From positions 22,554,225-22,618,224 of the forward strand of contig CM120640.1 of NCBI GenBank assembly GCA_051362555.1: 64,000 bases of DNA. The letters run 5' to 3'. The notes beneath the pieces were generated by a model. The model did not search any database and was not told where the DNA came from. It was given only the letters and a program-made list of their open reading frames with translations. Below are positions 642 to 21,373 of this stretch, piece after piece. The position numbers were made by a program, and so were the translations under genes. Every line of letters begins with the position of its first letter. Positions within the stretch are counted from its first letter, which is position 1. Source of the stretch: Lingula anatina (lineage: Eukaryota; Animalia; Brachiopoda).

Positions 642-709
642 ATGTTTCAATCTATGGTAGGAAGCTGCGGTGGTGAAGCACATGGAATAGAGGATAATTC
701 AGACGAAAG
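642..709 (+). CDS. Candidate alternative first coding exon of Kv1 (MFQSMVGSCGGEAHGIEDNSDE-R)
   Basis: ATG 642, 22 codons + 2 nt, donor AAG|GTAAGT. Phase 2 matches the internal Kv1 acceptor at 19890/19891. Confidence 0.6.
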
Positions 710-3094
710 GTAAGTTGTATGATATAGTATAAAATGGGCGTATTCAGGCCTTGCCTACGTTAATTGCTGTTTCTTCTGCCAACAGATATTGTAATAGAAT
801 GTAGAATGGATATCTCAATTCATATGCAATGGATATCCAGTCATTCTACTGGCCATAAGGGTCTGTACTGAGTGCAAGACGAACAATAATAATCTGTGAT
901 CTATCTGAATTTGAAAAAACAAATGTATGCATTTGAAATCCATATACCTGCTGCTAACATATCGAGTCCAACGCCATTTTCTTTGTCGGACGGCTATGTG
1001 CATATACGCAAATATTGTTTCTTTCTTCCTTCAGTGCACATTTGTTTTGAAGAAATAGAGAAAAATGACTACCAACTACACAAAAATCTAAAATAATCTA
1101 ATTACTTGCTTAAAAGAATCCTGGCCATCTCTTTAAGATATCAATAAGACGGTCAAATGCAACCTGAGCTGCAGAGCAAGATGTTGATCCATGTTTGTTG
1201 CAGCAAGGGAAATTGTATATTTACTTTAACATTACGTGAACTTGGGTGGAGGGATGATATATGAAGGAATAGTCCTAATGAACACGATGATGACAATAGA
1301 AGTATGCATTTGTTTTACCGTAGTTCCTCTTGCTTTCAAGGTGCGATCACGATACTCGGTGAAAGATGCAAAAGCGAAACATTGTTTTTCTTCTTGTCCT
1401 TTACAGTATATTCAGATGCTAAATGTCGGAATGTAGCCGGTTCTAAAGTCTGAAAATACATGTACATTTTAATGATAAACTATTAAAATATGAGAGATAA
1501 TAGTTAGTGAAATAAAAGGTGAGAGAAAAAGCACATCAAAGTAGAGGAAATAGACGTAAATCACATGCAGTGCAATGCTGTTTCCAAGTCAGCAACTCCA
1601 GGAAACTTCTTGTGCATGGGTCTTGCACACGACAAGATATAAGCACTGAAATTACGGAAAGGGCAGGTCTCAAATGGCAACCTGAAATTGGCAGACTACC
1701 GCACGGTGCGCATTGTTTAAGGTGGTTTTAACGTTCTTTTTATGTCGTCAATGCCCTGGCATCAAGAAAACTAACGAGAAGTAGATTTGCTGAAGGATGA
1801 ATAACTACCGGTAATCATATCATGGTTTACATGGGTATACTGTAGATTGGCGTCCAGGAACATAATTCTAATTATATGAGTGGAACTGCCATATGTCAAC
1901 TACATTCTGTGCCCGAGCTCTGTAATTTGTTTGAGTGAGCCGATGTGCGCGAGTGACGACATTATCCGTGGTCACAACAACACCTGCATTACGAGTTGCT
2001 GGCACGTAGAAAAATCAACGAACCCTCAAGAATTTTTGCTATGTAGCAGTAGGCCTACATCAGACATATAACATTACTATTTTTACTTTTCAAAGTTGAG
2101 AGCCTTAATGTGATTGAACGGGAAATGATGTGACTCCATAATGTACTTGTTGTAGGCCTATTTTCAATGTGAACATAGCGAGTGACATATTTCGGGTGGT
2201 GGAAAGCATGTAACGGTTGGGAATACAATACTTAAAATAGACATCTCGTAGAACATAACTTTGTAATTTTGACACCTGTGCATTATTTGACGAGGTTTTA
2301 TGTAAACAGATATCAAACAAAATGAAGCCAGAGATTCGTTGGTAAGACGGTTTGTCATGTTAATGGGGAGAGGGGACACAAAAATGTGAGCAATTTTCAA
2401 ATCATCATTAGGAAAGAAAAAAATGTATATGAACCTACCAGGGATTTACCTGTTTAATTCAGTACATTGAAATGATTCACGACATTTTACATTGTCGCTC
2501 CCGCAAAATCAAATATTCCTCGGAAAAAACGATGCATTTATCCCACTCGCATATCATGCTCGGCCCGTTCCTGCACTTGGATTCGATGTTTCATGCCATT
2601 TCTACTTTGATTTAGACTGCCATGTATTCCTGTACATTTCAGAAGGAGAAATTGACATCAGCTTCTTTTATTCGACGGAATTTCTTCATTTAAAAGGTCT
2701 GAATGTGCAGCATATGTAAACAGAAAATATTACTTGAAGATAATTTTTAACAAAATCTCCAGAAAAATCAAAGTAAACAAATGGTTTGGCATTTATGGGG
2801 CGAGCAAAAATTAACTGACAACTGTGACTGCAACGAAATGGACCGAGAAATGATCAGGACATCTGTATATAAAAAGAAATTATTGAAAAATGCCCAGATT
2901 CAATGTGTTAGCACACATTTTACGAATATTGCTCAGATCACGCAAAAATTCACCAGGCATCTTTTGTCCAAGCCTTGTCCGGATAATGTGCAAATTGCGT
3001 GACTTGGTCCAGGCTGTCACCTTCGACCTCTCAAACAAACATTTTCAGCAAACGTAATATCTAACTTCTTTTGGACTATTTCATTTGCAAAATT

Positions 3095-3165
3095 ATGTGG
3101 CATCCAACAGTGAGGAGTATAGGGATTTACGCGAGTTCGGAAGATAACGACTCCCTAGATGAAAG
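3095..3165 (+). CDS. Candidate alternative first coding exon of Kv1 (MWHPTVRSIGIYASSEDNDSLDE-R)
   Basis: ATG 3095, 23 codons + 2 nt, donor AAG|GTAAAT, phase 2. Ends like the 642 exon (EDN..DER). GIYASSED resembles GLYGLGED of the Drosophila ShB ball. Confidence 0.6.
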
Positions 3166-4081
3166 GTAAATTAAACTAAGCATTTGTATATCTATTTATT
3201 TTCGAAATAGTTCGAAGCAGAAATATGTCGAGGTAGGGCATGGCCCAAAACACCGGACATCTACGACCAAGTAATCAGTCACATGGGTGGGAGCACGTTT
3301 TAAAAAGGTCAAGATCCGTGTTCTTGCATTTATGTACGGCGAGATTTCCTTTTCTTTTGCATAAGAAGCCTGTTCATTTAGCAAAGAGAAAAATTAAGGT
3401 TTGACCAGAAATTAGAGCCAGTATATAGAAGTTCCAACTCATCTGCCGAGAACGAAAACGCAACCTGATTTAGAGGCAAGACTATGCACAGCGTTTATAC
3501 CCATAGCCCAAATATAGGATGTGTTGGGTAATGATCAGTGTTCAGTAGTTTTTAGACTAGCAATGTAAATATACTTCCTTCTCTTCAAATGACTGCATTC
3601 AAAATTTGTGCGCATCATCTATATCAAAATACCTTGGAAGAAACACTTAAGACAAAATCATGTTGACGATATTTTTCATTTTACAAGTGATTATTTCCAG
3701 ACATTTAACCTTTTTTAAGCATCGATATAAATGTTTCTTCAGCATTTTACCGTTTTTTTACAGTTATTCTCAACTAATTACTTTGTGATTGTGCAGCGTT
3801 CTCTACACCTCGCACCACTAATGCAATGGTCTGCAAGAGGGCAAAACGGTATTGACAGCAAGCTTTATCTGCCTTTTTATAGATGAAATTTGACAACATC
3901 CTAAAATAAAATATAAAGCACAAGGGCATTTGATATCCAAGGTATCATCTGGTGTTGAGAAATCCGGGGGGACGAGGGAGGGGTGATAGTGCGCTTCTAA
4001 AATCTATTATTTTTTTAAGTTAAATAATCCACGGTAAGGGGTGAACAATTTCTCTTGATAAAGCGAACAAAGTCTTCGAAA

Positions 4082-4113
4082 TTTATTTTTTATTCATTGC
4101 AAGTTGCTTTATT
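4082..4113 (-). terminator. Polyadenylation signals of SNRNP70
   Basis: AATAAA on the minus strand (plus TTTATT at 4082, 4089, 4108), about 270 nt past the stop codon. Confidence 0.55.
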
Positions 4114-4375
4114 AAACAATGTAGTTACATTCCCTTTGTTTCAAAATAAAACAAATGACCTTAAAAGATGATTTAAAGCTCAATGTCGCTGTCCATCACA
4201 CGTTTTTTACGATCTCCAAACAATTTCGCTATTTTGATTGGACGAATTTCAAATCTAAATTAAAAATCCAAACATCTGAGAATAAAAGTTCATAACCATC
4301 ACAAATGCACATGAAAATATCAAATAAAAGACATGAAATGTGCTTTAAGTTTAGGCATGATCAGCAACGTTCAAG

Positions 4376-7300
4376 TTAGTTTTCCTCACTGACATCCCCT
4401 GCACCACCATATTCTGTATAGTCCAGAGCTGCTGGTTCAGCTTTTAGCGGCATTGGCTCAGAGCCGTACTCTCCAACAGAACCGTACTCATTGCTATCAT
4501 CATAACTTTGTTGCATCTCTTCCATTGAGCGACTGGATTGATCATATTCTCCGTAGCCATTCTCGCCACCATTCTCTCCATTGCCATATTCCCCTTTATC
4601 CTCGTACTGTTCTGCTTTCATAGCCTCCTGATCACCCGATGCTTCATCCCCTCTTTCACCAGCACGATCTCTGTCTCCACGGTCACGATCACGTTTACGG
4701 TCACGGCTTCTGCTACGGCGGCTTCTTTTCCTATCACGTGACCTACTACGCTTTCTATCACGCGACCTGCTTCGACGACTGCGTTTGTGTGAACGGTCTC
4801 TGGAAGAGCCTCCCTCTTCTTCTGCTACGAAATTAAAAAAAGGAAAGAAAAAAGATTGAGTATTCTTCTGTTATGGAATTTATTAAGATTGAGTAGATCC
4901 AACCAACCAACAATTAAGTATAATATTTTTCATAGCATTTACAACAAGCAAATAATTTATTTTAAATCATATCACAGGCGTCTCTGGTTAAGTGGTTATT
5001 TAATATCAAATCATAAATAAATCTGTCCAGGGAAAAAATATTCTTCATACCTCCTTCAATCTGATCTTCTGGCATCGCATCTCCATCCATGTCTCTCTCT
5101 TTGTCTCTCTCTCCTCTCTCCATGTCCCGGTCCTTATCCCTGTCTCTGTCTCTGTCACGGTCTCTATCCCCACGGTCACGATCACCTCTGTCGCGGCTGC
5201 GTCTGCGGTCCCTGCTGCGAGAACGTCGGCGACGTTCCTTGCTCCTGCTTCTCTTCCTCTCTCTGCTACGACTGCGCTTCTTACTGCGAATACGCTCCCT
5301 ACTTCTGGACCGTTCTGCTTCACGACTGGCACTTCTCCTTCTCCTGAAATGATTTTTTAAAGAAGTCTTCATGAATATTTGCCACAACGATTGATATATC
5401 AGTAAATGAAGTACATAGGATAAAACACACTTCCCAAGTATTTTAAAGGCTAAGATAATTCTCATTGTAAACCAGTAAAAGAATTCTTACCCTTCATTGT
5501 CATCCCTGCCTGAGAATTTAGTGTTCACCTCAGGTCCACCTTTACGTGTGCCTCCTAGCCCACCACCTGCAAACAGTCATAATAAATATTTATACACCAA
5601 TTCTTTTATTAATACATTTTAAATAATGTAGTGTAAAAGAACCAAATCCTTATTATTACTTTTGAAACATTGTCTTATATAAATACATAAATAAATGCAC
5701 TCATTTCCCAGGCAATTTTCATCTTTAAACATACATAAATATGGGAATACAAGTGTATGTATGTATGGTATCTTAAACACACTCGGGTAATATCTAAACA
5801 CCAAGAACATTATCTAGTCTTTTTGTCAGGCAGAATAACTACATAAAAAGAGTTGGTAATCATTTCTTCTTCTGAGACAGATTTTTCTTCAATATCAGTT
5901 AAAACCTACCTAGCCTCCTTGGTCTCCATCCCTTCACAGTTCTCGCCCTCTCCACATCAACCAGTACACGGCGACCATCAATTTTTTTGCCATCTGCATG
6001 CTTGTAGGCAGCTAAACAAAAAACAGCAATAGATGAGAAATAACAAACCACAAAATCAGTGCTTTCTGTGCTATATCAAGTGCAGGATCAATCTGATACC
6101 ACTTGTCTAGTAAGTATGAAGATGCCAAATGGGAAATCATGGCATCAATTTATTAGATAAATAGGGGGTGCCTTAACCCCTGACCTCTGAAAATCAGAGG
6201 CAAGTTTTGATTGATTTCCAGTAAGTTTAAAACAACCAATATGAATAGGAACATCTTTGAAGTGTGTATCAATCATGATCGTGCTCTTGTTTTGTTCAAA
6301 AATCCTATGCTCTTCTTGCACGTCCACAAACATCTAGTTCATTCTTCAGGCAGGGGTAAAACTGTTCTGTCTCAAACTTACCTGAAAGGTCACCAAACAG
6401 GGGCAAAATTGATACCAAATTTGTACATTGACAATAGTTTTCAAAATTCAATTTTGTACCTGTTTGGGAATTTATATATTAAAACATATTATTCTGATAT
6501 AAAAAAAAAAAAGATTTTAAAAAACTTTCTCCCAGCTACAACTTTCTACACACCAAACACTGAAAATGGTCATTAAAGAAATAAAAGTTCCAATTCTTGG
6601 CACCTCAGCTTCCTCCATCTTCATTTCTGCAACTGATGGTCCTCCTCGTCAACCTACCTGGTTACATCAAATCAATGCACTTATATCAAAATAAAGAACT
6701 TACGATGCCTACTTATCTGAAGGGGGTCAGTAGTTGATTCAATTCATTGACTATGGATCATGGTCATCACGAGGCCTGATGTCCACTTCTGTGAAAATCC
6801 CACGTGAACTTACCCGGCCTTACCTGATTGGCTTTTTTTATTAACTTTTTTCTTTTTAATCTATATTATTCAAAATGACTCTATACAAAAACTAAAATCC
6901 AAAATGTCAAAAAAATTTTGTTTCAAATATGAAGGCCAATGCATCTTTGCTTCATGAATTTTCTATATTCAAATCTCCAAAAATATAATTTGACAAAAAT
7001 CCAAAGTAAATTTTTCCCACTGGTTTTATTTATTTAAAGCAAAAAAAATTCCCTGGATTGTTTTATTCTAACAAAAAAAAATTTTTTTTAATTAAAAAAA
7101 AAAAATCTGACTTTTTGAACATTATTTGTATAATTTCAAACCACCTGTTACCTGATTGGTTCCCTACCTACCATGGCCATTTTGAAGAAATTCCTGTTAT
7201 GGACCAGTTGACAGCCAAACCAAACATTTTCATATCAACATTGCAGTCTAGCAAAGTTTTAAAGTTTAAGTTTCATAGCAACCCCATGACCTGTGACATG

Positions 7301-9533
7301 GTGCGGTTGTGAAACTTTTTTTAAGATTTAGAAGTGCAGACCAAAAATTTTGCAAGAGAACTTGAAGAACATCAATTACATATTTTTCCCATTTACAAGG
7401 ATACAGTGGCTTTAGTTATGTTGCAAACCATGCAACATTTTAACCTGACTGTTCAACTTCAAGAGAGATTTTTTCATTTCAAAAGCATGCACCCAACATA
7501 CAAATCCTAAAATCAACTGTTAAATTTGGATAAATCAAAAGCAAATTCTGGAGTCAGGTTTTGTACTATGTGGAAGGTACACGACCCCAAATCTTACCAC
7601 ATATACAAACCTATAAATGGATTCCCACGTTAACTATGAGCAACTTTCAAAAGGATGGGGCCACTTAGACCAAGGACAGCAGAGGTCTGCAGTAACAAAA
7701 ATAACAGAGATTAATAAATATTGGTTCCCAAACATAAAAATGATTTCTGTTGCTCCCATATTATTTTCTCAAAATATTATTAATGATTACAAAAATGTGA
7801 TGTAAATCAAAACAAACACCATAAAAAACCTGGCTTACCACTGTTTCCAATACATTTTACCTGTCTTACCATTTTGGGATAAACATGGAGGGAAAAGGCC
7901 AATGAAAAAAAAAAAGCTGCAAATGACTTGTTATATAATCAAAACTGAATAAATACACCTTTATTTTACTTTAAACACTGGTCTGCTTCTTCAGAGGGCT
8001 GTCCATCACAAACAATGGCTAGATAAATGAGATAATAATACCGTAGCACACCAAATTTAAAGGAAATGAGATAAACACACCTTTGGGCTACTATTCATCA
8101 ATAGTAAAGTAAAGACTATCTGTCAACCAGTGGCCACTAAACTATACAAAATGACTTGAAATAAGGGCTCTTGCTATTCATCAAACTTTTTTAACGCCTG
8201 GTTTAACATCCACTGGATAAAGATGACCATGACATAAGATATCCCACCATTGTGCCTATTTAAACCCTTCACTGGCCCCTACACATAGGGACTGAGCCTG
8301 AGGTCATCAAACTTTCTTACAAAGTTGAGCTTTCAAAGGAGTGTTTAGTATGCAACTGTCACAAAACTAGCATAATGGTGAGACAGAATCGTAGGCCTTC
8401 TGCAGACATTTTCATCAATTCCAATGCCTCTCACAGGTAGGGCAACTTTTTAAATAATTATGCTCATTTTTAAAAAGAAACCAAAATAAGGTGCAGAAAC
8501 AAATAAAGGACATGTCTAGAGAGATAAGACTAATTTGTTGTGGGTGATCACAGAGTGAGAACTTTGTATAAGTATCTAAAGATGTAAGGTGTAAAATAGA
8601 TGTGTGTCACTAGCCATAAGGCAGTTTTTTCTATGAGGGCGTTTTTTTTTTTTCAATAGAATAAATCATAAGGTGTCTTCATTTGCTGTAATCTGTCAGT
8701 GAGTTATCTGTATGGTTATCCCATCTAACCCAATATGGGGCAGGAGTGCTGCAATAGGTTTAGAGTGAGTAAGCATGATGTATATGAAGTCTGTTCTCAT
8801 CCCCTATTTGTTTTCATGTTGTATATCAATTTAATACTGGCATTTCAAAGAAGGGTGTGAAATTGAAATTTTGGTTATGTAGGCCTCATTTGTTTTAATA
8901 CTTACAATGCATGTCTCTCTCATGTTCATACTCAATGAAGGCATAACCTCTGGGTTTTCCAGTGTTTCTGTCCTTGGCCACCGAGATCTGATAAATAAAG
9001 GAAAAATGGTTAGAATGATTCATTCATATCTATCAAACTGGGCTGTTTGTTTTTAGTAAGTCATGTGACCAGCAGTTACACTCATCTTCCTTCCTCAGGT
9101 ATGACCCTGATGGATTAAGATTTGCTCTAAGGTGTTGGAGACACAAAACGACACACACACGTACATACATCAAATATTAGGCCAAGTCTGTACTTTGTTA
9201 AGATGATCTCTTTCTTCTATGTCAAAGTTCCACATCAAAACCACAAAAATTCAGGCAATAACAATGTGAGGACAATCTTTAACAACTTGTAACTTTACAT
9301 TCAATTAAAATTTGCCACCTCAATATCAATGGGGAAAATTTCAGATGCATAATTTCAAATTCATTAAAATTATAATTCTGTGTAACATTGGGGGTGCTTT
9401 TTCTTTATAGAATAGAACTTAAGTTAGTCTGCTTTTGATTTTATTGCTATCTAAAGGAATGTTTCAATTTTAAGAATTTAAGACTTTTAAAAAATTAGTA
9501 TCTTTATCCCCATTAAAAAGCTTGAGTCATTAC

Positions 9534-9564
<31 letters not shown>

Positions 9565-12500
9565 TGGGGGGGGGGGGGGGAGGTTTCAATGATTAAAAGG
9601 ATTAATCTTTTTCCCATTAAACAACTTCAAAGATGTAACGTATAAAAATGCCACAGCAACAATTTTACTCTTATGAATCAATCCTGATGTTGTTCTAACC
9701 TTTCAAACCACCTCAAAATGAAGCACTATATGAAAACATGTTTATGGTCACTGATAGATAATTGATTATACCCTTCCTGATACCTTATTGTATCAGAACT
9801 CAAACAGCAGAATCTGTGTTCTTTGATCCTGCAAGGCCATACAATTTTCCTTGCAAAGAAGCTTTGAAAGCAACATCAAAATAACCTGTTTTTATTTGAA
9901 AGTAACTACATGGATAGGCATGAGCACTCAATGCTCTGTTTGAAAAGGGCAATATCGTCTCAAAACCCTGTTTTCAATGCATCTACCATGTTTCAATTAT
10001 TACAAAATACCTGATGCTGTCAAGATGGCTCGCCTGCTTAGATTAGTTAACACTATCATTACTTCACCATACTATAAATCCACCCAGTTAAAAAAGTTTT
10101 CAATTCTTGTCATAAAATGAGCTTCTGCATGCTCTGTAATTTACCCAGTGTTAAATGCCTCAGTCTTGGAAAGGCACACAGTTATGTTATAAATTTAGAC
10201 CTTCCCTACTACATCTTGTTTGTCAATTAATAAAGCCATCAACTGAAAGATTTTTGGGGACTCTTTTTCAGCATCCAAATATGTAGTTCTTAAAACTGAC
10301 GAAAGGGATTCATACAAGGAAAAAATACTTATTATATCCTGTCCCTCTCTAGAGGTATTTTATCAGGCACTCTTGTGAGTTACTGATATATTGTGCTGAC
10401 ACAGCTAATGTCTTATGTTCCAATTACTGTACCAAAAGACTGATGATCATGAGGGGGGGAGGAAAGTTAATATTATGAAAATGATGGTAACAAAAACCAC
10501 AGTCACCATTAAAAAGTTGACATTTGATCCAGATAAAACAAGTCATGCTTATCTCTGTAATATATGTTGCGTGCAGGTCAAATCTCTGCTAGACCTCATG
10601 ACTTCTAACACTATTTATTCATCAACCTGTCTTCACATTTGTATAAAATTCAAGTTAAAGTAGTCACTTTTAAACCACTATTTTCAGGATGAACAGGTTG
10701 GTTTGTCGATGTAGCAACTGGGTCTGGGACCAGTTTCATGAAGCAATATTTGGCTAATGGTGACCATTACAGAGTTTTTAACTTAGAAAAAAGAAACTAA
10801 ATGTGCATTTAATACAGAGATTAAGCAAATGAACCTCATAGCAAAACAGTCAATTAGCTAAGCATGGCTTCTTGAAACAGGGCTCAGAACTCTGAGAAGG
10901 TAGATCTATTTCTTATTGGGTAAAATACAGGAAGGTGAAATATAACTAATACCACTACTATAACAAATAGTTTATAGATCTCGAAATCAATGTTAAATAA
11001 GTTTTATGCTATTTTTAAGTATACCGATATCTGTCTAGCTTCTTCATATTGCAGTTTCCAATGATGCTGGCCTATTTCTAATAATATATGAATGTAAATA
11101 ACTCGGTTTAAGGTCATTCACAGAAAGTGCACCTGCACATTTGTGATTCTTTTTTTTTAAGATGCTTTATGACCCCATTCCCACAGACACCACTGATCCA
11201 TGTAGAACAATCCATCTCTGCAGGGACTCTCGCTGAATGCAATCCCATTAACAGATTAGTCTACCTCCTCCTGGCCTTGAGTGGAATACAGAAAGTATGT
11301 TGGAAACAAGAGTAGGCACATCAATCTGTTTAAGCTGATTGGATTCAGCAAGAGTCCCCTGGAGTTGGATTGATCGATGTAGACCCATTGTTTCAATGGG
11401 AATGAGGCCTATGACTGTGATTTTAATTTGAAAGAAAAAAAGATGCGTTTACAACTCTAATGCTCTAAACAAAAGAAAAAAGTCTTACAGGAAAAAAAAC
11501 TTTGCAGAGGTTAACAAAGATAACTAACTTTTTCCTTATTTTATGTGAAATAATCCCAGGCTTTAAATGGCAAAAACTTTTATTCAATAAGTATGAAAAA
11601 AAGGACTTCAAAATGTCGATCCCTAGTTTTTTAACTGCAAAAAGCTCCATACGTCATTACTTAATCTGCACTTTAAAAAGATTCACAAACGCAGATCTTA
11701 GCTTTTCCTTTTATAACTTGTTCTTTTTAAATTTGAATAAATGTTTTAGGGTCAAATGTAAGTCATATTAACTTTCCCTTGCATAATTTGAAAACAAATA
11801 TATCAACTGGGTTGACTTGACTTTAAAAACCAGTTACAGTGATTATTAACATGCTGCTTCACTGCACTAAGTAAACATATACAAACATTTAAAAAGTTTA
11901 ATCAAGCGCAATTGTGACAAAGCAGCTCTCATTTGTTGTTGTGTGGGTAAAATATAGAAACTATCAACAACAATTCTTACAATGAGTAATTTTAGAACAA
12001 CATTCTATGTAAAAACTTGGACAAAATGCACTGTTGCATTATTATTGTTTTATATAAAACCTATACAAATAGCAACCTTTGGGCTGCTAGTTTTCTATAC
12101 ATGTAATTGCAGTTGTGCAATTTAACATTACTTCCTTACAAATCATGAACCTAGCATAGCATAATGCCATATTTGAATGAAAATAGAGCAGAAAATTAAA
12201 TGCTTCAGAAGCAGTGAAGCACATCAAACATTTGACACATTCAGTAAGAAAAGTAGGACAACGAAGAAGTATTTTACCTTCTTAACTGGACCATACACTT
12301 CGAATTCCCTCCTCAGCTTGGATTCACTGGTGTCATAGTTCTGAAAGGAAAGAAGGTAAGCTGCACATTTCCATTTGTATGTCTACATAACAGGCAGTCT
12401 CATTCCTTAAAGCAATACAATAACTGGCAGCAGGGTTTCACAACAAGGATTTGACATACCACACCCTTGTTACTGATATCTTAAATAGCATAATTACTCT

Positions 12501-13877
12501 GCCAGGGATAAAATGCATCTCACTTGTACAAAAGATGTGACATTTGAGGCGGTAGAGGTATGATGGAAGTGACATTAAATTCAGACTGATAAACACAATC
12601 TATGTATTCCATCCACCATCCTGTGAATACTGAAAATAGGTAAAAAGAAATGTGCCATTGGTGAAAGATATCATATTTATATTCAAAACAAAGCAAAAAT
12701 GTCTATAAATATAAAACGACTTTTTGATAGTATCCCATTTCATAACTGCAATACTTACAATTCGCGCCACAAATAATGTCTTGAAAGGGTCTTCAGTCCC
12801 ACTTGGAGTGTTTGTTGGATCCCCTGCAAAGAAAAAAACAGAGTACATGAGAAATATGCTGGCTAGATACAATAATTAATTTGCCTATTTATATAGAGAA
12901 CCAATAGAATGCAGCCTTGCAACATATAGCAAATAGCAGCTCAGTGGCAAAACACATGTCAGAATAATACACAAGAGGTCATGGGAATGAAGCCTTTTGT
13001 ACCATCTCCCTAATCCTCTATTTATGGAAGGCTTAGATGCGAATGAAATATCCCTGAACTACAGTCACCAGTATATCCTAAGCTCAAAGACAAATATTGT
13101 ATTTTAAAACATTTGCTCACAGGAGCATGGCTCCTTGTTCCCCTTCGCTTTCTAGTGCTCACAAGCAGCAATGATATATTTTGACTGGAGTGGGGTTCCC
13201 TGACAGGGAAAGAAATATGATGCCAATCTACTAGTTACAGCTTTGTCAGGTATACCAGCAAGATGTACAGGTGAGTTAAACTGTACATTACAGAGCCAAC
13301 ATGGAAGGTAGGGGGGGGGAAGGGTTTTCAAACATGTACATGGCTAACAATTTGTTAAAGTATAATGCCTCTCACTAACTCACAACAAACCTGGCAACAG
13401 CATTTAGGAATGATTGCCTTTCAAGATATATTACTCTTTCGTTTGACCTTAGAATACTTATTGAGGTGGTTGAGTAAATGCCACCGAAAGAGCGATAGAC
13501 AACGAGCTAATAGATGTGTAATGACGTATGCATGTTCATATGTACTCCATATTGTTAACTTAACTGTGATTTTAGGAACAATTAAGACAGCATTGTTGTG
13601 CCTTATCCCTTCTATTATCCAATGTTATGCACGTTTACATCATAACCTTACATCTGGATTTTTAGTTAAATCAAATTACGTTGTGAGCTAAATCCACTCT
13701 GTATCAACACAGCAATAACATAAAAGGAAAGTAGGACCCGTATGTTTAGAACAGGGATCTAGTCTGCTTGTATCTGAATCATTTTGCAATCATCAGCAAT
13801 GCTGTTCTGCTCTCCAGGATATACTCAGACAGATTTGATTTTGCTAGTTGTATTACATATATGAACACCATTATATG

Positions 13878-13920
<43 letters not shown>

Positions 13921-16900
13921 GTCTTTTACCTCTGGAATTACTACACTGTATGATAGTAATGCAGTAATACTTTGGTAAGATGTTTAATCTTCCTGGTGTT
14001 TACTACTTATACTAACATGAAAGTGGTTAGTGCAAGTGAAAAGCCCAGGTATAATTTGCTCTACATCAAACTTTATTAAAATATTTCAGGTATCATTCGT
14101 GCTAAAATTAACAGATAAGTGTATAACTGAATCTTTCAGTTTTTGTAAATGATTAAAGAATTATTTAGTGAAACGCATTTGAAAACATACCATACATAAC
14201 ATACATAATTAAACTCTTTAAATTGAGATAATTGAAATAATCTATTAAAATCATTCTAGTTTTAAAAAGATTAATAATACTGAATGCATTTTTATGTACC
14301 ACAACTATTATCCAGTAAATCTTTTATTTGTGCTGTAATTATAATAACCCAGTAACATTTTGTTTTAAAATTCACTTGTAAAAAATTTGGTAATACCCAG
14401 CAGATCTTTGTTAACTACCAGATTTATAAGATGCCATCATTTTCTATCAAAATTCAATAACTTGGAAAAAACCAAGATATAAAATATGCAGTAATCAGAA
14501 TAATCAGTTTTTCATAAACTGTTGCAGTATTCTTTTAAGCTCAGGGAATAAAATCAACCATTTTCTTAAAAACTGTTTTGTAACTTTTTAAAATAAATTT
14601 TCAGCAAAGTGATGCATAAACCAAAAAAACAACTGGTTATCTTAAATAGCATAACTGTTATACACATAGTCAAAAATATTAGCCAATGGTACTGTTCAGC
14701 AAAACAGATGCCAAAAGCCTATTAATATGGAAGCCGGTCGGTCTATAGGTAAAATAGGCACAACAACTGTTGTTTAGCATTTGCCTATCTAACACAACAA
14801 GATATGGTTGCAATTCCGATTTAAGATCCTCTTCACAGCTTCGCACCTGGTGTAACCTGCAGGCTGCACAGGCTTTACATGAAACGCAATGTTTGCTGCT
14901 GCAGTGAATTAAATCTAAACATTACTGCCTTAAGCTGGATTGTTTACTTAAAGGAATAAAGGTCGAATTATTGATTGCAGATTTTAATTGCATTTTCAAT
15001 ATTTCTTTTACTTACTGCCCAATGACATCTTCCACTTTTTCATTCATTCAATAAAAATGCATTTTCTGGTTCTTTAAAAATTTGTTTGGTCATAATAAAA
15101 TTCTTTGTCATTTATTGCTATGACCCTTTGCCTGGAAAATTCAATTTCAAACAATGCTTCGCAAACTTGAAACTTTTTTAATTGCCTCTTTCATCTAAGA
15201 ACAGTTACAAATTGGTGTGTTATCTGAAAAAAATCTTTTTTGTTGTCTAGAGAACGGTGACAACCAGTTTGAGTGCTTTTTCAAATAAAAATTCTTTAAA
15301 ATGAAATGAAAATCAACATAAATCATAAAGGCGCTGCTAATGCCTTCAAACTGATCGCCCCCACCTATTCTTGTTGTATCAGTTTGTATATATTAGACAG
15401 CATATTCCCAGACCTCAGTAGGATGCCAAATGAGGAATGGTTTCCTGCCTGTAAGTGGGCAAACAACATCTCTTGACATTCAGAATGCTAACCTCGATAC
15501 TAGTGGCATTTGTTTCTGTTTCCCATCACTTGGTTGCCTCAGAGTGTTGCTCATTATAAGAATAAACTACGTTATTCTCCAGCTTAAGTTTGCGTGGATT
15601 TGGATATATTGGACACCCAACGCAAGCAAGTGCGGGCAGAATGATTGGTTTGGGTAATTCTGAGCAAAGTCAAAGGTGGGAGTGGTTTTGTTATTTTTTT
15701 TCTATGAAAAAGGGGAATGGGGGGTGGTGGTTAACAAAAAACTTGTTTTCTCAACCTGAGAAAGAAATTATTAGGCCTTTTCAATATATAGATATAATGA
15801 GAATGGTATAATCAATACACGTGAGGTGCACTTTATGGATGTGCATGTTGCATGTTCAACAGTCTGGTTGCTTGCCTCATCTGCATGCACATTCCATTTC
15901 ACACATTTTACGTTGCATGCACTGTGCAATCTAAAACTGAAAATGGACTAGTAATTCAGTACATCTCCTGCAACAAATAGATCTTAGATTAACAGATTGC
16001 AAAAGATGTTAGATGCAGCTTGTGCTCTTGTCGGAAATGTTGCTGCCACATATAACAGATTTTATTACATCTAATTCATTTGTAAGGCCCTTAAAGCAAA
16101 CAGGTTAGCTGCTTTACTTAATGACAGAACAGGGGTTGATCTATTTCAGGTATCTGTAGTCAGTTTGTAAGGAAAGGTGTGTTAAGTATGAGAATATAAT
16201 TACTACCTGGACTGTGAAAGCCAATAGCTTTAACTTAACAACAGATGTATGAGGAATGCACTTACGGTTCACTACTACACCATCAAAATAGACTGATATT
16301 TTCAGCGAGTTTGCCAAGGGTCTATTTCAATCACCAATATCAAACTTACATAATGCCAAATCTTGCTCTAGCTTGTATGCAACCTGCTCAGCTCGCTCTT
16401 TTCTCTGAAACATGAGAGGTTTCATTTGTAAGAAGCTATCAAAAAATCAGGTAAGATGAAATATATTAAAATTCAGTAGTTCTGGGAGTAAGTTTCTATA
16501 CTGCAACACAAGGTACTTTTAATAAGTTTTGATGTTTAATGTTTGAAATTTATGTAGTTTGCATTAATATGACAGTTAAGGCACTGGGTGCACATTAAGT
16601 TCCTTACCTTCCTTTCTTTGCGTTCCTCTTTGGTTTCAGCCCTAGTAGGTGGGGGTGTATCCTTAGGGTCCTAAAATATATAACTAGCAATATTTATCTG
16701 GAAATTGAAAATGCCTCAAGTGCCGCTTACAGAAAGCTGTCTAACAAAATGTTTAAAATATCAATAGCAATTTCCTTTGGGTACACTAAAGATCAGTAAC
16801 CCTAGTTCAAGTTGTGCTAGTAATTCTAACATTCTCTATGCATATATCAACAATTTTTACCGTCTCGAAAGGAGATATATATGTGATGAGCAAATGGGCC

Positions 16901-18975
16901 TGCTCAAGCAAACGTATGTGTTAAAGAAGAAAAAAGCCTATTGCAATGTAGATCATTAATTCTGAATGTAATAGGGTTCTAAACGGGCTTGTGTATAATT
17001 TTTCTTATGTGGTTAAACATGTGACATGTACTGCATGTGTGAGGCTACATTTCACCTTTCTTTTTTCATGGTGCTATATATTCCCAATTCCAATATCTTT
17101 TCACAAATGATGGGTCTGCCAGACCCATTATTGTGTCAAATGGGAATACTTCCTTTCTTCTATTCATGTGCAACAACCGGGTCACATTTGTCATGCGGAT
17201 CTTTTTTATATATCCCATATTATTCAGAGCAAGAAGCACATAACTGCATATTACAAAATACTAACAATAGAGAAGAGCACTGCAGTTTTATGGAGATAAG
17301 TGCTATAAACAAAGGATGGCTAGACATAAGCAAGCTCTATAGCATGAAGATGGATTATTTAATGTTCGTTCTCCACAGCACTTAATTTCTGTTGCTGTTT
17401 ACAATGTGATCTAATTTTGGCACTACAGTAGAGGCACTGATATCTGTATATACAGACTAGCATTATAGGATCAGCTGAAGCAAATTGATGGCTTTAGGAC
17501 TATTCCAGAACCAGATCCTGGGAAATTCATATGGAGTCACAATGCTGCCTTGCTTTTCTGAAAAGCTTAAACAGTGCTTATTTATTAACATTTGGTTTTT
17601 CTCTTTCCAATTTTGTGTGTTCTTAATACAAAGGTTTTCTCCATGCCTCTTAGGTTCAGAGACCCAGAAACCCGTGAATCATTGCGGCACGAACGCAAAG
17701 TTGCTGCAAGAAGAATTCAACGGGGCAGCAAAAAAAGAAAAGCATCAACAGCATCTGAGACTGGACAGGATCTCCGGAGAAAAAGCAGCACCCCATCAAT
17801 GTTCAAAGCACCCAGTCCAACTTTACTGGATAATGCTCAAATAATGGTGGACAAATTAGACCCAAGTCAGTGTATTCCTAACGAAGATAAAGATGCCTGG
17901 AAACTCAACAATCAAGTCCCCGAAGCTTATCACCTTGTGTCAGTTCCAGATGATGATCAAGTTGCCCTGTTACCACCCTCCTCTCCTAGCAGTCCTGTGA
18001 CCAAGTAAGTGTTCAAGTGTAGGTTCAATAATGCTTATGAAAACAGTAGTTTGAAAATTACCATATAGCAGTTAATCTACATATGAAAAGACAAGATCAA
18101 TATGTATGGATTAAGAGAGATCGACAAAGAAAACAAACCTGACAACAATAGTGTCACTGAAGCTTCTCTTCCACACCTGGCATTTTTCCTACATGCACAG
18201 ATGCAATCACTGATTCAATTACGCGTTACTTTCTGATAAGAAACAATAACTAATTACATTGGAGAGTAGATAATGCCGTTTGAGATTTGGGGGTATGTCT
18301 TCCCATTGCATGCAAGGCCCTATTATCAGCATCAAATTGTATGACTGATCTCACTAGACTACTGTGTGGGAGACTCCACAATCAATGGGATATTGATTGC
18401 CTGTGAAAACCAAAGGAATAATCAAGCATCTGAATTGGTCAAATTCGGATCAGTTTATGTGTAGCAGATCTTTGGGCACTCTACACCAATTGTGCTGATT
18501 AAATTAACTGAGAATGCAATGAATTATTAATTGAAATTGTGTCGATGGTGTAGATTGGAAGTGTGAACAATAAGCAGTAAGGAAGATACCTGTCACATCT
18601 TTGGCTACCGTGTCTGTGTTATGCACGTGAAAGGTCCACTCTAGAAGTTACGGAATACTTTTTCATGTAGACGGCCAAGTACCACGAGGATGGCAACTAT
18701 TGTTTCCGCCATTTTGGAGTTGTAAGTTAAATTAAGAAGTCAGCTTTTAGTTCGTATGCAAATGTTAAGCGTCAGAAGAAATCAATTGGACTTATTAAGT
18801 GGGCAACATAGGCATATTTTAAGCAACTTACCTCAAATTCGTTCAAATTGTTGGCTACTCCGAAGTATGGTACCCTCTTCTTTTCGTGTGGTAGCTTTGT
18901 TACTGGTGGAAGATATGGAATCGGGTCGCGTGGCGCAAAAAGCGCAAGCAAATTTGGTGGTAAAAATTGTGTCAT
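4376..18975 (-). CDS. SNRNP70: U1 small nuclear ribonucleoprotein 70 kDa (10 coding exons, about 463 aa)
   Basis: Exons (minus): 18832-18975, 16608-16670, 16350-16404, 12759-12823, 12278-12340, 8906-8987, 5910-6011, 5491-5566, 5051-5343, 4376-4824. All introns are GT-AG with consistent phases (1392 nt). Translation gives [53 protein letters not shown], the RRM motif [54 protein letters not shown], then RS/RD-rich repeats. Confidence 0.97.
8375..8436 (+). CDS. Candidate alternative first coding exon of Kv1 inside an SNRNP70 intron ([21 protein letters not shown])
   Basis: ataATGG context, 20 codons + 2 nt, donor CAG|GTAGGG, phase 2, PKA-type motif RRPS. Confidence 0.45.
9534..9580. repeat. 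(TA)n followed by poly-T and poly-G runs
   Basis: Direct reading. Confidence 0.85.
10724..10887. mobile_element. Degenerate MITE-like element with terminal inverted repeats
   Basis: Left end CTGGGACCAGTTTCATGAAGCAATATTTGGCTAAT versus reverse complement of right end CTGAGCCCTGTTTCAAGAAGCCATGCTTAGCTAAT. Confidence 0.5.
11171..11409. mobile_element. Fold-back MITE (Tourist/PIF-Harbinger-like)
   Basis: Ends GACCCCATTCCC...GGGAATGAGGCC with long imperfect inverted arms (CAATCCATCTCTGCAGGGACTCTCGCTGAATGCAATC vs rc CAATCCAACTCCAGGGGACTCTTGCTGAATCCAATC) and a 3-bp direct flank TAT. Confidence 0.65.
13881..13918. repeat. (TA)n microsatellite
   Basis: Direct reading. Confidence 0.95.
17643..18004 (+). 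CDS. Candidate long alternative first coding exon of Kv1 inside the first coding intron of SNRNP70 (120 aa)
   Basis: ATG 17643, stop-free and protein-like for 120 codons ([33 protein letters not shown]...[11 protein letters not shown]). Ends exactly at donor CAA|GTAAGT in phase 2. Confidence 0.65.
18690..18721 (+). CDS. Candidate short alternative first coding exon of Kv1 ([11 protein letters not shown])
   Basis: aggATGG Kozak context, 10 codons + 2 nt, GTAAGT donor, phase 2, hydrophobic ball-like peptide. Overlaps a YY1-like CCGCCATTTT motif, which is an alternative explanation. Confidence 0.4.
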
Positions 18976-19089
18976 AATCTACGAGCACAGATCTTTTGTG
19001 TTCTAAAAAGGTTCGCGGTCCAACGTAAGTCAGAATTTAGGAGTAAACGTATTAGAATGACTAAGATTATCTGCTGAATATTCGATTAC

Positions 19090-19140
19090 CATTCCCTCTT
19101 CGTCATCACATGCCACCCAATAATGGCTTCCACCCTATAC
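19090..19140 (-). other. SNRNP70: Probable non-coding first exon / TSS region of SNRNP70
   Basis: Acceptor AG at 18980-18979 just before the ATG requires an upstream exon. Donor ATG|GTAATC at 19090/19089 lies in a CpG-rich segment. The upstream boundary is approximate. Confidence 0.4.
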
Positions 19141-19792
19141 CCGCTTTTGTAGTCACAGGTGCAGATATCCCATTCATTACTTGCCTTGTTTACGTGCGCG
19201 TACTGTATAGAATAAGGTAATAGTGTTCTTCCGCGCTGCACCACCAAATAGTTATTTTAAAACTTTAGAGTATATGCTGATTGTATTTGCTTAAAAAATT
19301 AAGTCAGACAAGCGGAATTCATAACAGAGAATATAGTAAAGTATATCTTAATTAATTATAGTACGTTTTAGATGTTCAGTGGACGGTGTGAACTGTCCCT
19401 AGTGGGACGCGATAATGACCGCATTACCGACTTTCTAGGGCACCTGCCAGCCTCGCTCTGGTCAATATTCATACGCTAATGGCAGATCTTGCGGTGTGAA
19501 TGGCCCAGTTGCCACGACGATTGTATTGATTTTTCAGCCATGAAATATTGGACTTAGTAGCTCAAATTTGTTCAGTAGCCTCTATTGACAATGCAGTTTT
19601 ACTGGGATGCATAGGTGACGTCAAAGAATAATATTCATCCGGGCTATCCCTTATTTTTGTGGAAGCCATCTTGCAGAGAGCAGAAGGCTTGCAAGACTGT
19701 GAAACGACATTATCAAAATTTCGAGGCTAGATTTTATTGAGAAGTGGGGGTTTACCCCCGTGATAAGGCCTCACCGCAAGCCAGTAAGCGGG
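19140..19792. promoter_or_regulatory. Divergent CpG-rich promoter region between SNRNP70 and the proximal Kv1 start, with a full CRE
   Basis: Head-to-head arrangement, local CpG enrichment, palindromic TGACGTCA at 19616-19623, YY1-like GCCATCTT near 19667. Confidence 0.55.
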
Positions 19793-21373
19793 ATGGAGGT
19801 CGCTATGGCTGGAGTGGAGGGGAATGGGGGACCGCCGCCTTATATGAATCAGAAACCTCATCTGAATCGTCCCTCTCTTCCAAATTCCAGGTCTTTCCCG
19901 AGAATCGGCCCAGACGACGATGCTCCAAACCAGGACGACTCACAGCTGCAGGGGAACACTGAGTATGAGTGCTGTGAACGTGTAATCATCAATGTAAGTG
20001 GTCTGCGCTTTGAAACACAGCTCAAGACCCTTAGCCAATTTCCAGAGTCACTGCTAGGAGACCCAGCCAGAAGAAACAGGTACTATGACCCCCTGAGAAA
20101 CGAATACTTTTTTGACAGAAACAGGCCTAGCTTTGATGCCATATTATATTATTATCAAAGTGGAGGAAGACTACGGAGGCCTGTCAATGTACCTTTGGAT
20201 GTATTCTCAGAAGAAATCAAGTTCTATGAATTAGGAGAAGAGGCAATCACAAAATTCCGAGAGGATGAGGGTTTCATCAAAGAAGAGGAGCGAGTGCTTC
20301 CTGAAAACAAAATACAGCGAAAGATCTGGTGTCTTTTTGAATACCCAGAGACATCCCTTGGAGCACGTATTATTGCAATTTTCTCAGTATTAATCATTTT
20401 GTTATCCATTGTTATATTTTGCCTGGAAACTCTACCTGAATTCAAACACTACAGGGTTGTTAATACAACCATCAATGGCACTGGGCATACTCTGGAGGAG
20501 GATGACATACCAAAATTCAGTGAGCCATTCTTTATTATAGAGACAGGGTGCATAGTATGGTTTACATCTGAGCTACTTGTAAGATTTGCTTCCTGCCCAG
20601 AGAAATTGGGCTTCTTTAAAGACATCATGAACCTTATAGACATAGTTGCCATCATCCCTTATTTCATTACACTTGGCACAGTGATTGCAGATGAACAGGA
20701 AACTCCAGAACCTCAGAAGAAGCAACAGAACAATCAAGCAATGTCATTAGCAATCTTGAGGGTGATCAGATTGGTAAGAGTTTTCAGAATATTCAAACTA
20801 TCCAGACACTCAAAAGGATTGCAAATTTTAGGACAGACTCTAAAAGCTAGTATGAGAGAATTGGGTCTGCTCATTTTCTTTTTATTCATTGGAGTCATAC
20901 TCTTCTCTAGTGCTGTGTACTTTGCAGAAGCGGACTCAGATGCATCACACTTCAAGAGTATACCAGATGCATTCTGGTGGGCTGTTGTGACAATGACCAC
21001 TGTAGGTTATGGTGATATGAGGCCTATAGGTGTGTGGGGAAAGCTGGTTGGTTCTCTGTGTGCTATTACTGGTGTGCTAACAATTGCACTCCCAGTCCCT
21101 GTTATTGTTTCCAACTTCAACTACTTCTACCACCGAGAGACTGAAAATGAAGACAAGCAGCAAGCATATGTACATGTTCAGTCTTGCCCCAACTTCCCAA
21201 GAAGAAAAACTGCTTCATCGGATGCATCAGATCATGAGGATGATGAGGAATCAGACATAATGGAAATGGAAGAGGGTATGGCATTGACTACAGGTTTGGA
21301 CAAACAGACAAAACAAAACCATGCCAATCTCTCCAATGATGCTAATAACATGAGCATTGAAACTGATGTATGA
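19793..21373 (+). CDS. Sh: Shaker/Kv1 voltage-gated potassium channel, intronless core (526 aa from ATG 19793)
   Basis: T1 domain ([43 protein letters not shown]), S4 [23 protein letters not shown], filter TTVGYGD, PVPVIV gate, C-terminal PDZ ligand ETDV. N-terminus [14 protein letters not shown] resembles Aplysia Kv1.1. The ORF-track start at 19760 is a GTG. Confidence 0.97.

What the first reader, a model, noticed from the sequence alone, without database searches (positions are those of the whole stretch)
642..19891. Array of alternative ATG-bearing first exons that would give one Kv1 channel many N-termini
Seen: inside the Kv1 ORF, a pyrimidine tract and acceptor CCCTCTCTTCCAAATTCCAG|G (19871-19891) splits codon R33 in phase 2, just before SFPRIG. 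Established: Drosophila Shaker variable N-termini join the constant region at the homologous SLPKLS, and the N-terminus determines N-type (ball) inactivation. Seen: many plus-strand donors upstream are preceded by an in-frame ATG in phase 2. The best are 642-709, 3095-3165, 8375-8436, 12602-12639 ([13 protein letters not shown]), 13263-13270 (MY-R, perfect CAG|GTGAGT), 17643-18004 and 18690-18721. Weaker ones are 1797-1810, 2322-2341, 3225-3232, 3484-3527, 13919-13974, 15430-15653 and 19110-19216. Roughly half the donor-like sites I checked passed, which looks above chance but was not tested formally. Inference: a variable-first-exon/constant-exon cassette tuning channel inactivation by promoter choice.
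Basis: partly seen in the sequence, partly recalled or inferred. Interest (0 to 1): 0.88.

Follow-up and report, generated by a model that had tools for sequence, protein, structure and literature searches.

The report
Three-tier Shaker N-termini nested in snRNP70
A lamp-shell potassium-channel gene hides a conserved splice site inside its own front end, so a few upstream exons lying in the opposite-strand snRNP70 gene likely swap the channel's N-terminal tip and would change how fast it shuts; most of the 14 proposed exons look like chance.

Summary
The window holds the Kv1 (Shaker) gene of Lingula anatina, head to head with snRNP70 (minus strand). The acceptor at 19891 is real. Its Arg codon is AGG in 7 of 7 loci, the only fixed codon among 20 invariant Arg columns. 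But there is no 14-exon array. Phase-2 ATG-donor pairs are 19 of 56 loose donors, and 11-14 are expected by chance. 17654-18004 is an internal exon. 642-709, 13263-13270 and a missed exon, 15641-15675, feed into it (RefSeq X1-X3, rebuilt letter for letter). 18690-18721 splices directly and is conserved in molluscs and other spiralians. The unspliced MEVAM form (the Aplysia inactivation ball, also seen in vertebrate Kv1.4) dominates three RNA runs. A bivalve contig repeats the order: long exon, short exon, snRNP70 exon 1 antisense, MEVAM, acceptor. No Kv1 junction reached the 3-read listing limit, and effects on inactivation are untested. An unexpected extra is a conserved, AUG-less in-frame peptide upstream of MEVAM, possibly started at AUU.

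The parts
642..709 (+). First coding exon of isoform X1; splices to 17654 (phase 2)
   Evidence: Joined model identical to XP_013403461.1 = P0123; donor AAG|GTAAGT; RNA depth near 0 in the runs laid
13263..13270 (+). 8-nt coding end of the first exon of isoform X3; splices to 17654; lies in snRNP70 intron 3
   Evidence: Joined model identical to XP_013403463.1 = P0121; only 3 residues, so the placement rests on this match and on the strongest donor score; no plus-strand depth in X3, X4, X6
15641..15675 (+).
   Evidence: Joined model identical to XP_013403462.1 = P0001
17654..18004 (+). Long internal exon (351 nt, phase 2-2) with a basic N-terminal part; Met at 17799 starts isoform X4; snRNP70 intron 1
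   Evidence: In all 4 RefSeq isoforms; plus-strand RNA depth confined to bins 17649-18190 in stranded runs X4 and X6, with depth in the same bins in unstranded X9; weak homology to the mollusc exon and to contig L005
18690..18721 (+). Short conserved coding exon ([11 protein letters not shown]), predicted to splice directly to 19891; snRNP70 intron 1
   Evidence: 8 stored proteins join a homologous peptide at S[FY]P; genomic copies with phase-2 donors in L004 and L010; an X1 contig aligns up to 18723, where a splice would end it; not in the 4 Lingula RefSeq proteins seen
19718..19792 (+). Conserved in-frame, AUG-less peptide upstream of the MEVAM Met; possible AUU-started extension
   Evidence: Same motif in L001, L003 and 6 stored proteins and in 3 more proteins found independently; differences mostly at third codon positions; in-frame stop at 19700-19702
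19793..19890 (+). MEVAM N-terminus (residues 1-33) of the unspliced form; doubles as the 3' end of the intron in spliced forms
   Evidence: Reads run straight across 19891 in X2 (depth 17 at 19862, 16 at 19897); conserved in 80 stored proteins
19871..19891 (+). Internal 3' splice site splitting codon R33 (AG|G)
   Evidence: AGG in 7 of 7 loci, the only fixed codon among 20 invariant Arg columns; ordinary introns end at the same place in L009, L010, L012, L013
19891..21373 (+). Constant exon: T1, S1-S6, pore, C-terminal ETDV
   Evidence: ORF; identical to the Lingula RefSeq proteins with PF02214 and PF00520
4376..19109 (-). snRNP70 (U1-70K) gene, 10 coding exons, 463 aa, ATG at 18975, 5' end near 19109; host of the Kv1 upstream exons
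   Evidence: All nine introns seen as read joints; translation; read ends pile at 19109

Best explanation
This Kv1 gene likely makes three classes of N-terminus by promoter choice and one conserved internal acceptor, and the swap is predicted to change N-type inactivation. (1) Transcripts starting just beyond the snRNP70 promoter stay unspliced and begin with MEVAM, the same tip that blocks the pore in Aplysia Kv1. Reads show this form directly; that it inactivates fast is inferred. (2) A transcript starting inside snRNP70 intron 1 would splice the 32-nt short exon to 19891 and replace residues 1-33 with a short hydrophobic tip that lacks basic residues. This is inferred from homologues and from one contig end. 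(3) Transcripts from further upstream splice one of at least three small first exons to the 351-nt internal exon and then to 19891, giving a 148-168-residue N-terminus. This rests on RefSeq models plus exon-shaped RNA depth. Classes 2 and 3 must be transcribed antisense through the housekeeping gene snRNP70. The layout likely dates to early spiralians. The other ten candidate exons are most likely chance ATG-donor pairs.
For: Four exon joins rebuild the four Lingula RefSeq proteins exactly. The junction codon is AGG in 7 of 7 loci; the other 19 invariant Arg columns all vary; AGG is 26% of Arg codons in these ORFs. Among 143 stored proteins with the junction motif (redundant, sorted by pattern) there are 30 long, 8 short, 80 unspliced and 25 other; 9 groups share an identical constant start with two or more classes, and the Haliotis and Mytilus groups carry all three. 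Contig L004 (groups with Mactra) has long exon 956-1352, short exon 2213-2247, snRNP70 exon 1 on the minus strand near 2331-2429 and the acceptor at 3740/3741, the same order as the window. L005 has a long-exon homologue inside snRNP70 intron 1. RNA: depth of 2.85, 2.91 and 2.8 in bin 17649-17919 for X4, X6 and X9, with 0 in both flanking bins on that strand in X4 and X6. X6 has 0 at 19546-19816 but 5.7 in the constant exon. X5 has 0 at 19862 and 2-4 at 19897-19912. In Aplysia Kv1 the first five residues block the pore (PMC11639194, passages), and its N-terminus is the MEVAMAG type (PMC7987177, passage).
Against: No Kv1 splice joint was listed in any of the 8 runs laid (of 10 offered). The listing limit is 3 reads, 6-26% of each raw run was read, and some rows were hidden. 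No plus-strand depth lay over 13263-13270 or 15641-15675 in X3, X4 or X6, or over the short exon in those runs; depth over 642-709 was near 0. RefSeq models are predictions, and I could not see their read support. The 5' end of the long exon is phase 0 in L004 but phase 2 here, and its protein homology is weak (top of 2128 window segments, E 0.031). L003 has the snRNP70 synteny but neither exon was found; L006 shows no snRNP70 hit in about 2.5 kb upstream. There is no electrophysiology for any Lingula form.
Confidence: 0.72

Rival explanations
1. Same exon layout, but the swap mainly serves cell-specific promoters, translation or trafficking, and inactivation changes little.
For: First exons are tiny and differ between species. 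The long exon is basic and its function is unknown (no usable Atlas hit). Squid SqKv1A inactivates only incompletely over hundreds of ms (PMC2229315, abstract).
Against: Splicing removes exactly the residues that form the Aplysia ball. The short peptide is conserved almost residue for residue across phyla, which a mere promoter exon would not need.
Confidence: 0.18
2. One reading: an array of 14 or so first exons, each spliced straight to 19891.
For: All 14 are open in phase 2. The phase-2 count was reached by only 3 of 500 shuffles. 3095-3165 ends like 642-709. X3 has 2-4 plus-strand reads near 19009-19042.
Against: 11-14 such pairs are expected by chance. Ten candidates have no annotation, homologue or exon-shaped depth. 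The 642/3095 likeness was matched by 56 of 2000 random stretches. The supported first exons go to 17654.
Confidence: 0.06
3. The gene is a plain intronless Kv1, and the upstream exons are annotation noise from antisense transcription.
For: No joint was listed. The unspliced form dominates X2, X3 and X4.
Against: The AGG codon is fixed, the exons are conserved in syntenic contigs, and joined proteins occur in many molluscs and in Logan contigs.
Confidence: 0.04

Closest known systems
Drosophila and crustacean Shaker 5' splice variants
   Same: Variable N-termini join the constant region at the homologous S[LF]P[KR] site (Macrobrachium isoforms). Drosophila variants differ in inactivation kinetics (PMC3519636, passages).
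   Different: Here the acceptor lies inside a translated ORF whose unspliced form is a main product. The constant part is one exon. There is a second tier (a shared long exon), and the exons sit antisense in snRNP70.
Aplysia AKv1 (AKv1.1a)
   Same: MEVAMAG N-terminus ending in PNSRSFP; shows N-type inactivation through the first five residues.
   Different: The passages I read treat one N-terminus; 'splic' occurs 0 times in PMC11639194.
Squid SqKv1A-D
   Same: Recalled, not retrieved (paper not held): a 1997 report of Kv1 cDNAs that differ only in the 5' UTR and first codons, with cell-type-specific expression. A cephalopod-like protein with the short tip is P0189.
   Different: I could not check which tip each squid cDNA carries or whether the genomic layout was described.
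Lingula RefSeq isoforms XP_013403461-4
   Same: Four of the joins are already in the automated annotation.
   Different: The four proteins seen lack the short and unspliced forms, and nothing seen marks the conservation or the upstream extension.
Vertebrate Kv1.4 (KCNA4)
   Same: 39 of 62 stored proteins P0059-P0120 begin with MEVAMVS, and the source names in that set are mostly KCNA4.
   Different: Vertebrate KCNA genes are intronless except KCNA7 (PMC1978502, passages).

Membership tests
Kv1 / Shaker subfamily | T1 domain plus six-helix channel, with closest relatives named Kv1 | tested here: met
   Constant region identical to P0001 with PF02214 and PF00520; all named hits are Kv1/KCNA/Shaker
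Shaker-type 5' splice variation | Different N-termini join one site just upstream of T1 | tested here: met
Shaker-type 5' splice variation | Junction reads at the acceptor in this species | tested here: inconclusive
   None listed at the 3-read limit; depth steps fit splicing in X5 and X6
Shaker-type 5' splice variation | Isoforms differ in N-type inactivation | not testable with these tools
   Needs expression; only hydropathy and charge were computed
Variable-first-exon arrays (protocadherin / UGT1 type; definition recalled) | Many tandem, paralogous first exons, each spliced to the constant exon | tested here: not met
   Excess over chance is 5-8 sites; the best-looking pair is not clearly related; three supported exons join 17654
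Non-AUG N-terminal extension (criteria recalled) | In-frame, coding-type conservation upstream of the annotated AUG | tested here: met
   Differences at codon positions 1/2/3: 4/2/8, 6/5/10, 5/5/12 over 21 codons in three pairs; 9 further proteins
Non-AUG N-terminal extension (criteria recalled) | No upstream AUG or acceptor can supply the frame; a conserved near-cognate codon opens it | tested here: inconclusive
   Met in the window (stop at 19700, no AG or ATG before ATT 19718) and AAA ATT TC is shared by 3 of 3 loci; but L003 has an AG just upstream, and P0232 and P0008 have a Met a few residues before the motif
Non-AUG N-terminal extension (criteria recalled) | Initiating ribosomes or peptides at the codon | not testable with these tools
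   Needs ribosome profiling or N-terminal proteomics

The most novel reading that the evidence does not exclude
An ancient spiralian switchboard: one Kv1 gene keeps, drops or masks its Aplysia/Kv1.4-type inactivation ball in four ways. It can stay unspliced, take a short conserved exon, take a long exon with interchangeable tips, or carry an AUU-initiated 25-residue extension that caps the ball without any splicing. The upstream exons are held antisense inside snRNP70 intron 1, which would lock the two genes together (recalled, unchecked: human KCNA7 still lies head to head with SNRNP70).
Probability: 0.35. Interest if true: 0.75.

Novelty: new variant of a known kind. Interest (0 to 1): 0.5.

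Why it matters
It would show that a Kv1 gene that looks intronless in brachiopods, molluscs and worms hides the same splice entry that insects use. It would also tie the fast-inactivating Aplysia channel and slower cephalopod channels to alternative fronts of one orthologous gene. It gives a testable origin for Shaker 5' splicing: an acceptor inside the ball-coding sequence. The conserved antisense nesting in a core spliceosomal gene and the possible non-AUG extension are the parts a specialist would not expect.

Tried and rejected
No genome is held for this window, so other contigs could not be searched. No RNA holder was listed for the stretch; the raw runs came by species label. Searches with the long N-terminus (1 hit among 257 candidates) and the short one (2 among 3) added nothing. 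The Atlas gave no usable hit for the long exon or the extension. Earlier findings: none. The first snRNP70 translation was off by one base and was corrected. In one search the L010 short-exon donor was picked wrongly (31 nt); one search gives the phase-2 donor at 5430. The scarcity of X1 differences in 19793-19890 looked strong against the next 178 nt (p 0.002) but weak against the whole aligned constant part (2 of 98 vs 53 of 710, p 0.05), so I do not lean on it. The L010 long phase-2 exon does not match the long-exon profile (E 0.18). Four of the 7 hits to the extension profile were set aside (P0229, P0230, P0231, P0233): two are repeat proteins and two lack the K/R-W-G core. The careful tree did not finish; only the quick tree was used. 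Ten paper searches found no paper on this exon layout, on the short peptide (0 hits for two spellings), on Kv1-snRNP70 synteny or on a non-AUG Kv1 start. The library lacks most subscription journals and I opened no supplements, so this is not proof of absence.
Full report
Setting. The ORF at 19703-21373 is a Kv1 channel. Its constant part is identical to four Lingula anatina RefSeq proteins, XP_013403461-4. The minus strand from 4376 to about 19109 carries snRNP70. Its nine introns appear as read joints, the 463-residue translation is intact, and read ends pile at 19109.

Count check on the placement (15 rows = 14 candidates plus the missed exon). Six rows lie 3' of snRNP70: 642, 1797, 2322, 3095, 3225 and 3484. 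One row (19110) lies 5' of the snRNP70 ATG. Where other fields say 8 of 14, read 7 of 14 plus the missed exon.

Is the list above chance? All 14 are open in phase 2. With a donor pattern that catches 14 of 14, 19 of 56 donors pass in phase 2, 11 in phase 0 and 14 in phase 1. Three control regions pass at 0.19-0.23, and 500 shuffles give 11.3 of 46.3. The count was reached by 3 shuffles, the fraction by 38 and the per-donor excess by 18. With stricter patterns the fraction was reached by 100 and 103 of 500. A weight-matrix version agrees. So 11-14 of the 19 are expected background, and the surplus of 5-8 is about the number that other evidence supports.

The acceptor. In the window and in the six metagenome loci with a MEVAM-type ORF (L001-L006, from 80 loci), the junction Arg is AGG in 7 of 7. 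It is the only one of 20 invariant Arg columns with a single codon, and AGG makes up 26% of Arg codons there. In L009, L010, L012 and L013 an ordinary intron ends at the same place. Crustacean Shaker isoforms vary up to the homologous SLPKLS.

Which exons are real. Joining 642-709, 15641-15675 or 13263-13270 to 17654-18004 and then to 19891 rebuilds RefSeq X1, X2 and X3 exactly; a Met at 17799 gives X4. So 17654-18004 is internal, and the ATG at 17643 lies in its acceptor tract. The exon scores above shuffles against 8 of 8 mollusc long exons (0-12 of 1000 shuffles reach the score), and a mollusc profile ranks it first of 2128 window segments, though only at E 0.031. The short exon 18690-18721 has homologues joined at S[FY]P in Haliotis, Mytilus, Mya, Mizuhopecten, a cephalopod-like Logan protein (P0189) and P0030, which groups with Lingula. 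Genomic copies with 35-nt phase-2 exons lie in L004 and L010. The other ten candidates have no such support.

Conserved layout. L004 repeats the window's order: long exon, short exon, snRNP70 exon 1 antisense, MEVAM, acceptor. L005 has a long-exon homologue ending in a phase-2 donor at 2725, about 60 nt from the end of snRNP70 exon 1. L003 has the synteny but neither exon. In all, 3 of 80 loci hit snRNP70; of the six MEVAM loci, L001 and L002 hold under 750 nt upstream and L006 shows no hit. A quick tree of 39 rows puts L002 and L004 with Mactra (100), L001 and L003 with Capitella and unnamed relatives (92), and L005, L006, L009, L010 and L012 together (100), next to Macrostomum with weak support (83). 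Against strict homology, the long exon opens in phase 0 in L004 and in phase 2 here.

RNA. Eight of ten runs were laid; raw runs were read to 6-26%. snRNP70 reads show that 'first mate -' means plus-strand RNA in X2-X6; X8 and X9 look unstranded. X2 runs straight across the acceptor (10 at 19784, 17 at 19862, 16 at 19897), and X3 and X4 have depth 9-12 at 19546-19816, so the unspliced form dominates there. X6 has none in that bin but 2.9 on the long exon and 5.7 on the constant exon. X4 and X9 also cover the long exon, and in X4 and X6 both flanking bins are empty on that strand. An X1 contig (a related organism; RNA is only a guess) aligns 18561-18723 and then continues for 18 unmatched letters. 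Intron and constant exon both begin GT, so a splice at 18721 would end the match exactly there. No Kv1 joint reached the 3-read listing limit. None of the small first exons, nor the short exon, showed plus-strand depth in the stranded runs. X3 has 2-4 plus-strand reads at 19009-19042, a weak hint only for the 19110-19216 region.

Mechanism. Shown: exon structure by sequence and annotation, conservation, the unspliced RNA, and exon-shaped depth on the long exon. Inferred: separate promoters, the 18721>19891 splice in this species, and all effects on gating. In Aplysia Kv1 the first five residues block the pore and the next nine or so dock the chain (PMC11639194, passages); its N-terminus is the MEVAMAG type (PMC7987177, passage). 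Splicing to 19891 deletes these 33 residues. The short tip is hydrophobic (mean Kyte-Doolittle 1.75 over 10 residues) but followed by net charge -7 and only 39 residues before T1; the long forms have 148-168 residues and differing tips. I expect fast inactivation in the unspliced form and weaker or altered inactivation in the others. Squid SqKv1A inactivates incompletely over hundreds of ms (PMC2229315, abstract), but that it carries the short tip is not shown here.

An extra element. Upstream of the MEVAM Met the frame stays open to a stop at 19700-19702 and encodes a K-I-S...EKWGxTP peptide with no ATG. The motif recurs in frame in L001, L003 and six stored proteins, and is absent from L002, L004, L005 and L006. 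A profile search of 1.84 billion representatives gave 7 hits, 3 with the motif; P0228 keeps it in frame about 155 residues before MEVAMAG. DNA differences fall mostly on third positions, and AAA ATT TC is shared by 3 of 3 loci. In the window no AG lies between the stop and that ATT, so an AUU start is the simplest reading. An upstream acceptor or Met is possible in some other species, and a non-coding sequence signal is not excluded.

What is known. Shaker 5' splicing in Drosophila is established (PMC3519636, passages), four joins are in RefSeq, and a squid cDNA family differing at the 5' end is recalled but was not retrievable. I read passages of bioRxiv 10.1101/2025.09.21.677649, PMC5797086, PMC7192619, PMC1978502, PMC3711925 and PMC6625096 and found nothing on this layout; no supplements were opened. 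The human KCNA7-SNRNP70 adjacency is recalled, and no paper read confirmed it.

Verdict. A real, small, two-step system of alternative N-termini, not a large array: a new variant of a known kind, interest 0.5.

Noticed in passing
window 19718-19792 +: Conserved AUG-less in-frame peptide before the MEVAM Met, a possible AUU start. In P0232 and P0234 the motif is followed by non-channel sequence, as if on its own exon.
   Followed up: partly
window 6012-8905 (snRNP70 intron 6, minus strand): An alternative joint 7686>8906 and raised intron depth at about 6500-8600; X1 contigs at 7551-7734 are conserved. This fits the autoregulatory poison exon of U1-70K (recalled).
   Followed up: no
window 4821/4824: Tandem acceptors 3 nt apart in the last snRNP70 intron, both used.
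   Followed up: no
window 13042-13854, minus strand: RNA depth of 12-66 inside snRNP70 intron 3 in X3 and X4, with reads starting near 13313 in X2: a possible intronic poly(A) product. It overlaps the 13263-13270 Kv1 exon on the other strand.
   Followed up: no
L005, L006, L009, L010, L012, L013: One clade of paralogues seems to have split the roles: L005 and L006 keep an unspliced MEVAM-like front, while the other four have a plain intron at the junction, L010 with the short exon.
   Followed up: partly
window 18659-18670 +: An acceptor-like site 19 nt before the short exon's ATG would make a 51-nt phase 2-2 cassette; no phase-2 equivalent was seen in L004 or L010.
   Followed up: partly
window 58662-59339 +: A 225-aa ORF that reads like the integrase end of an LTR retrotransposon (my reading, no family scan); a 60-nt stretch at 58541 recurs at 59685.
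   Followed up: no
window 2565-2647 and 11202-11335: Short repeats that draw many partly matching reads; depth there is not exon evidence.
   Followed up: no
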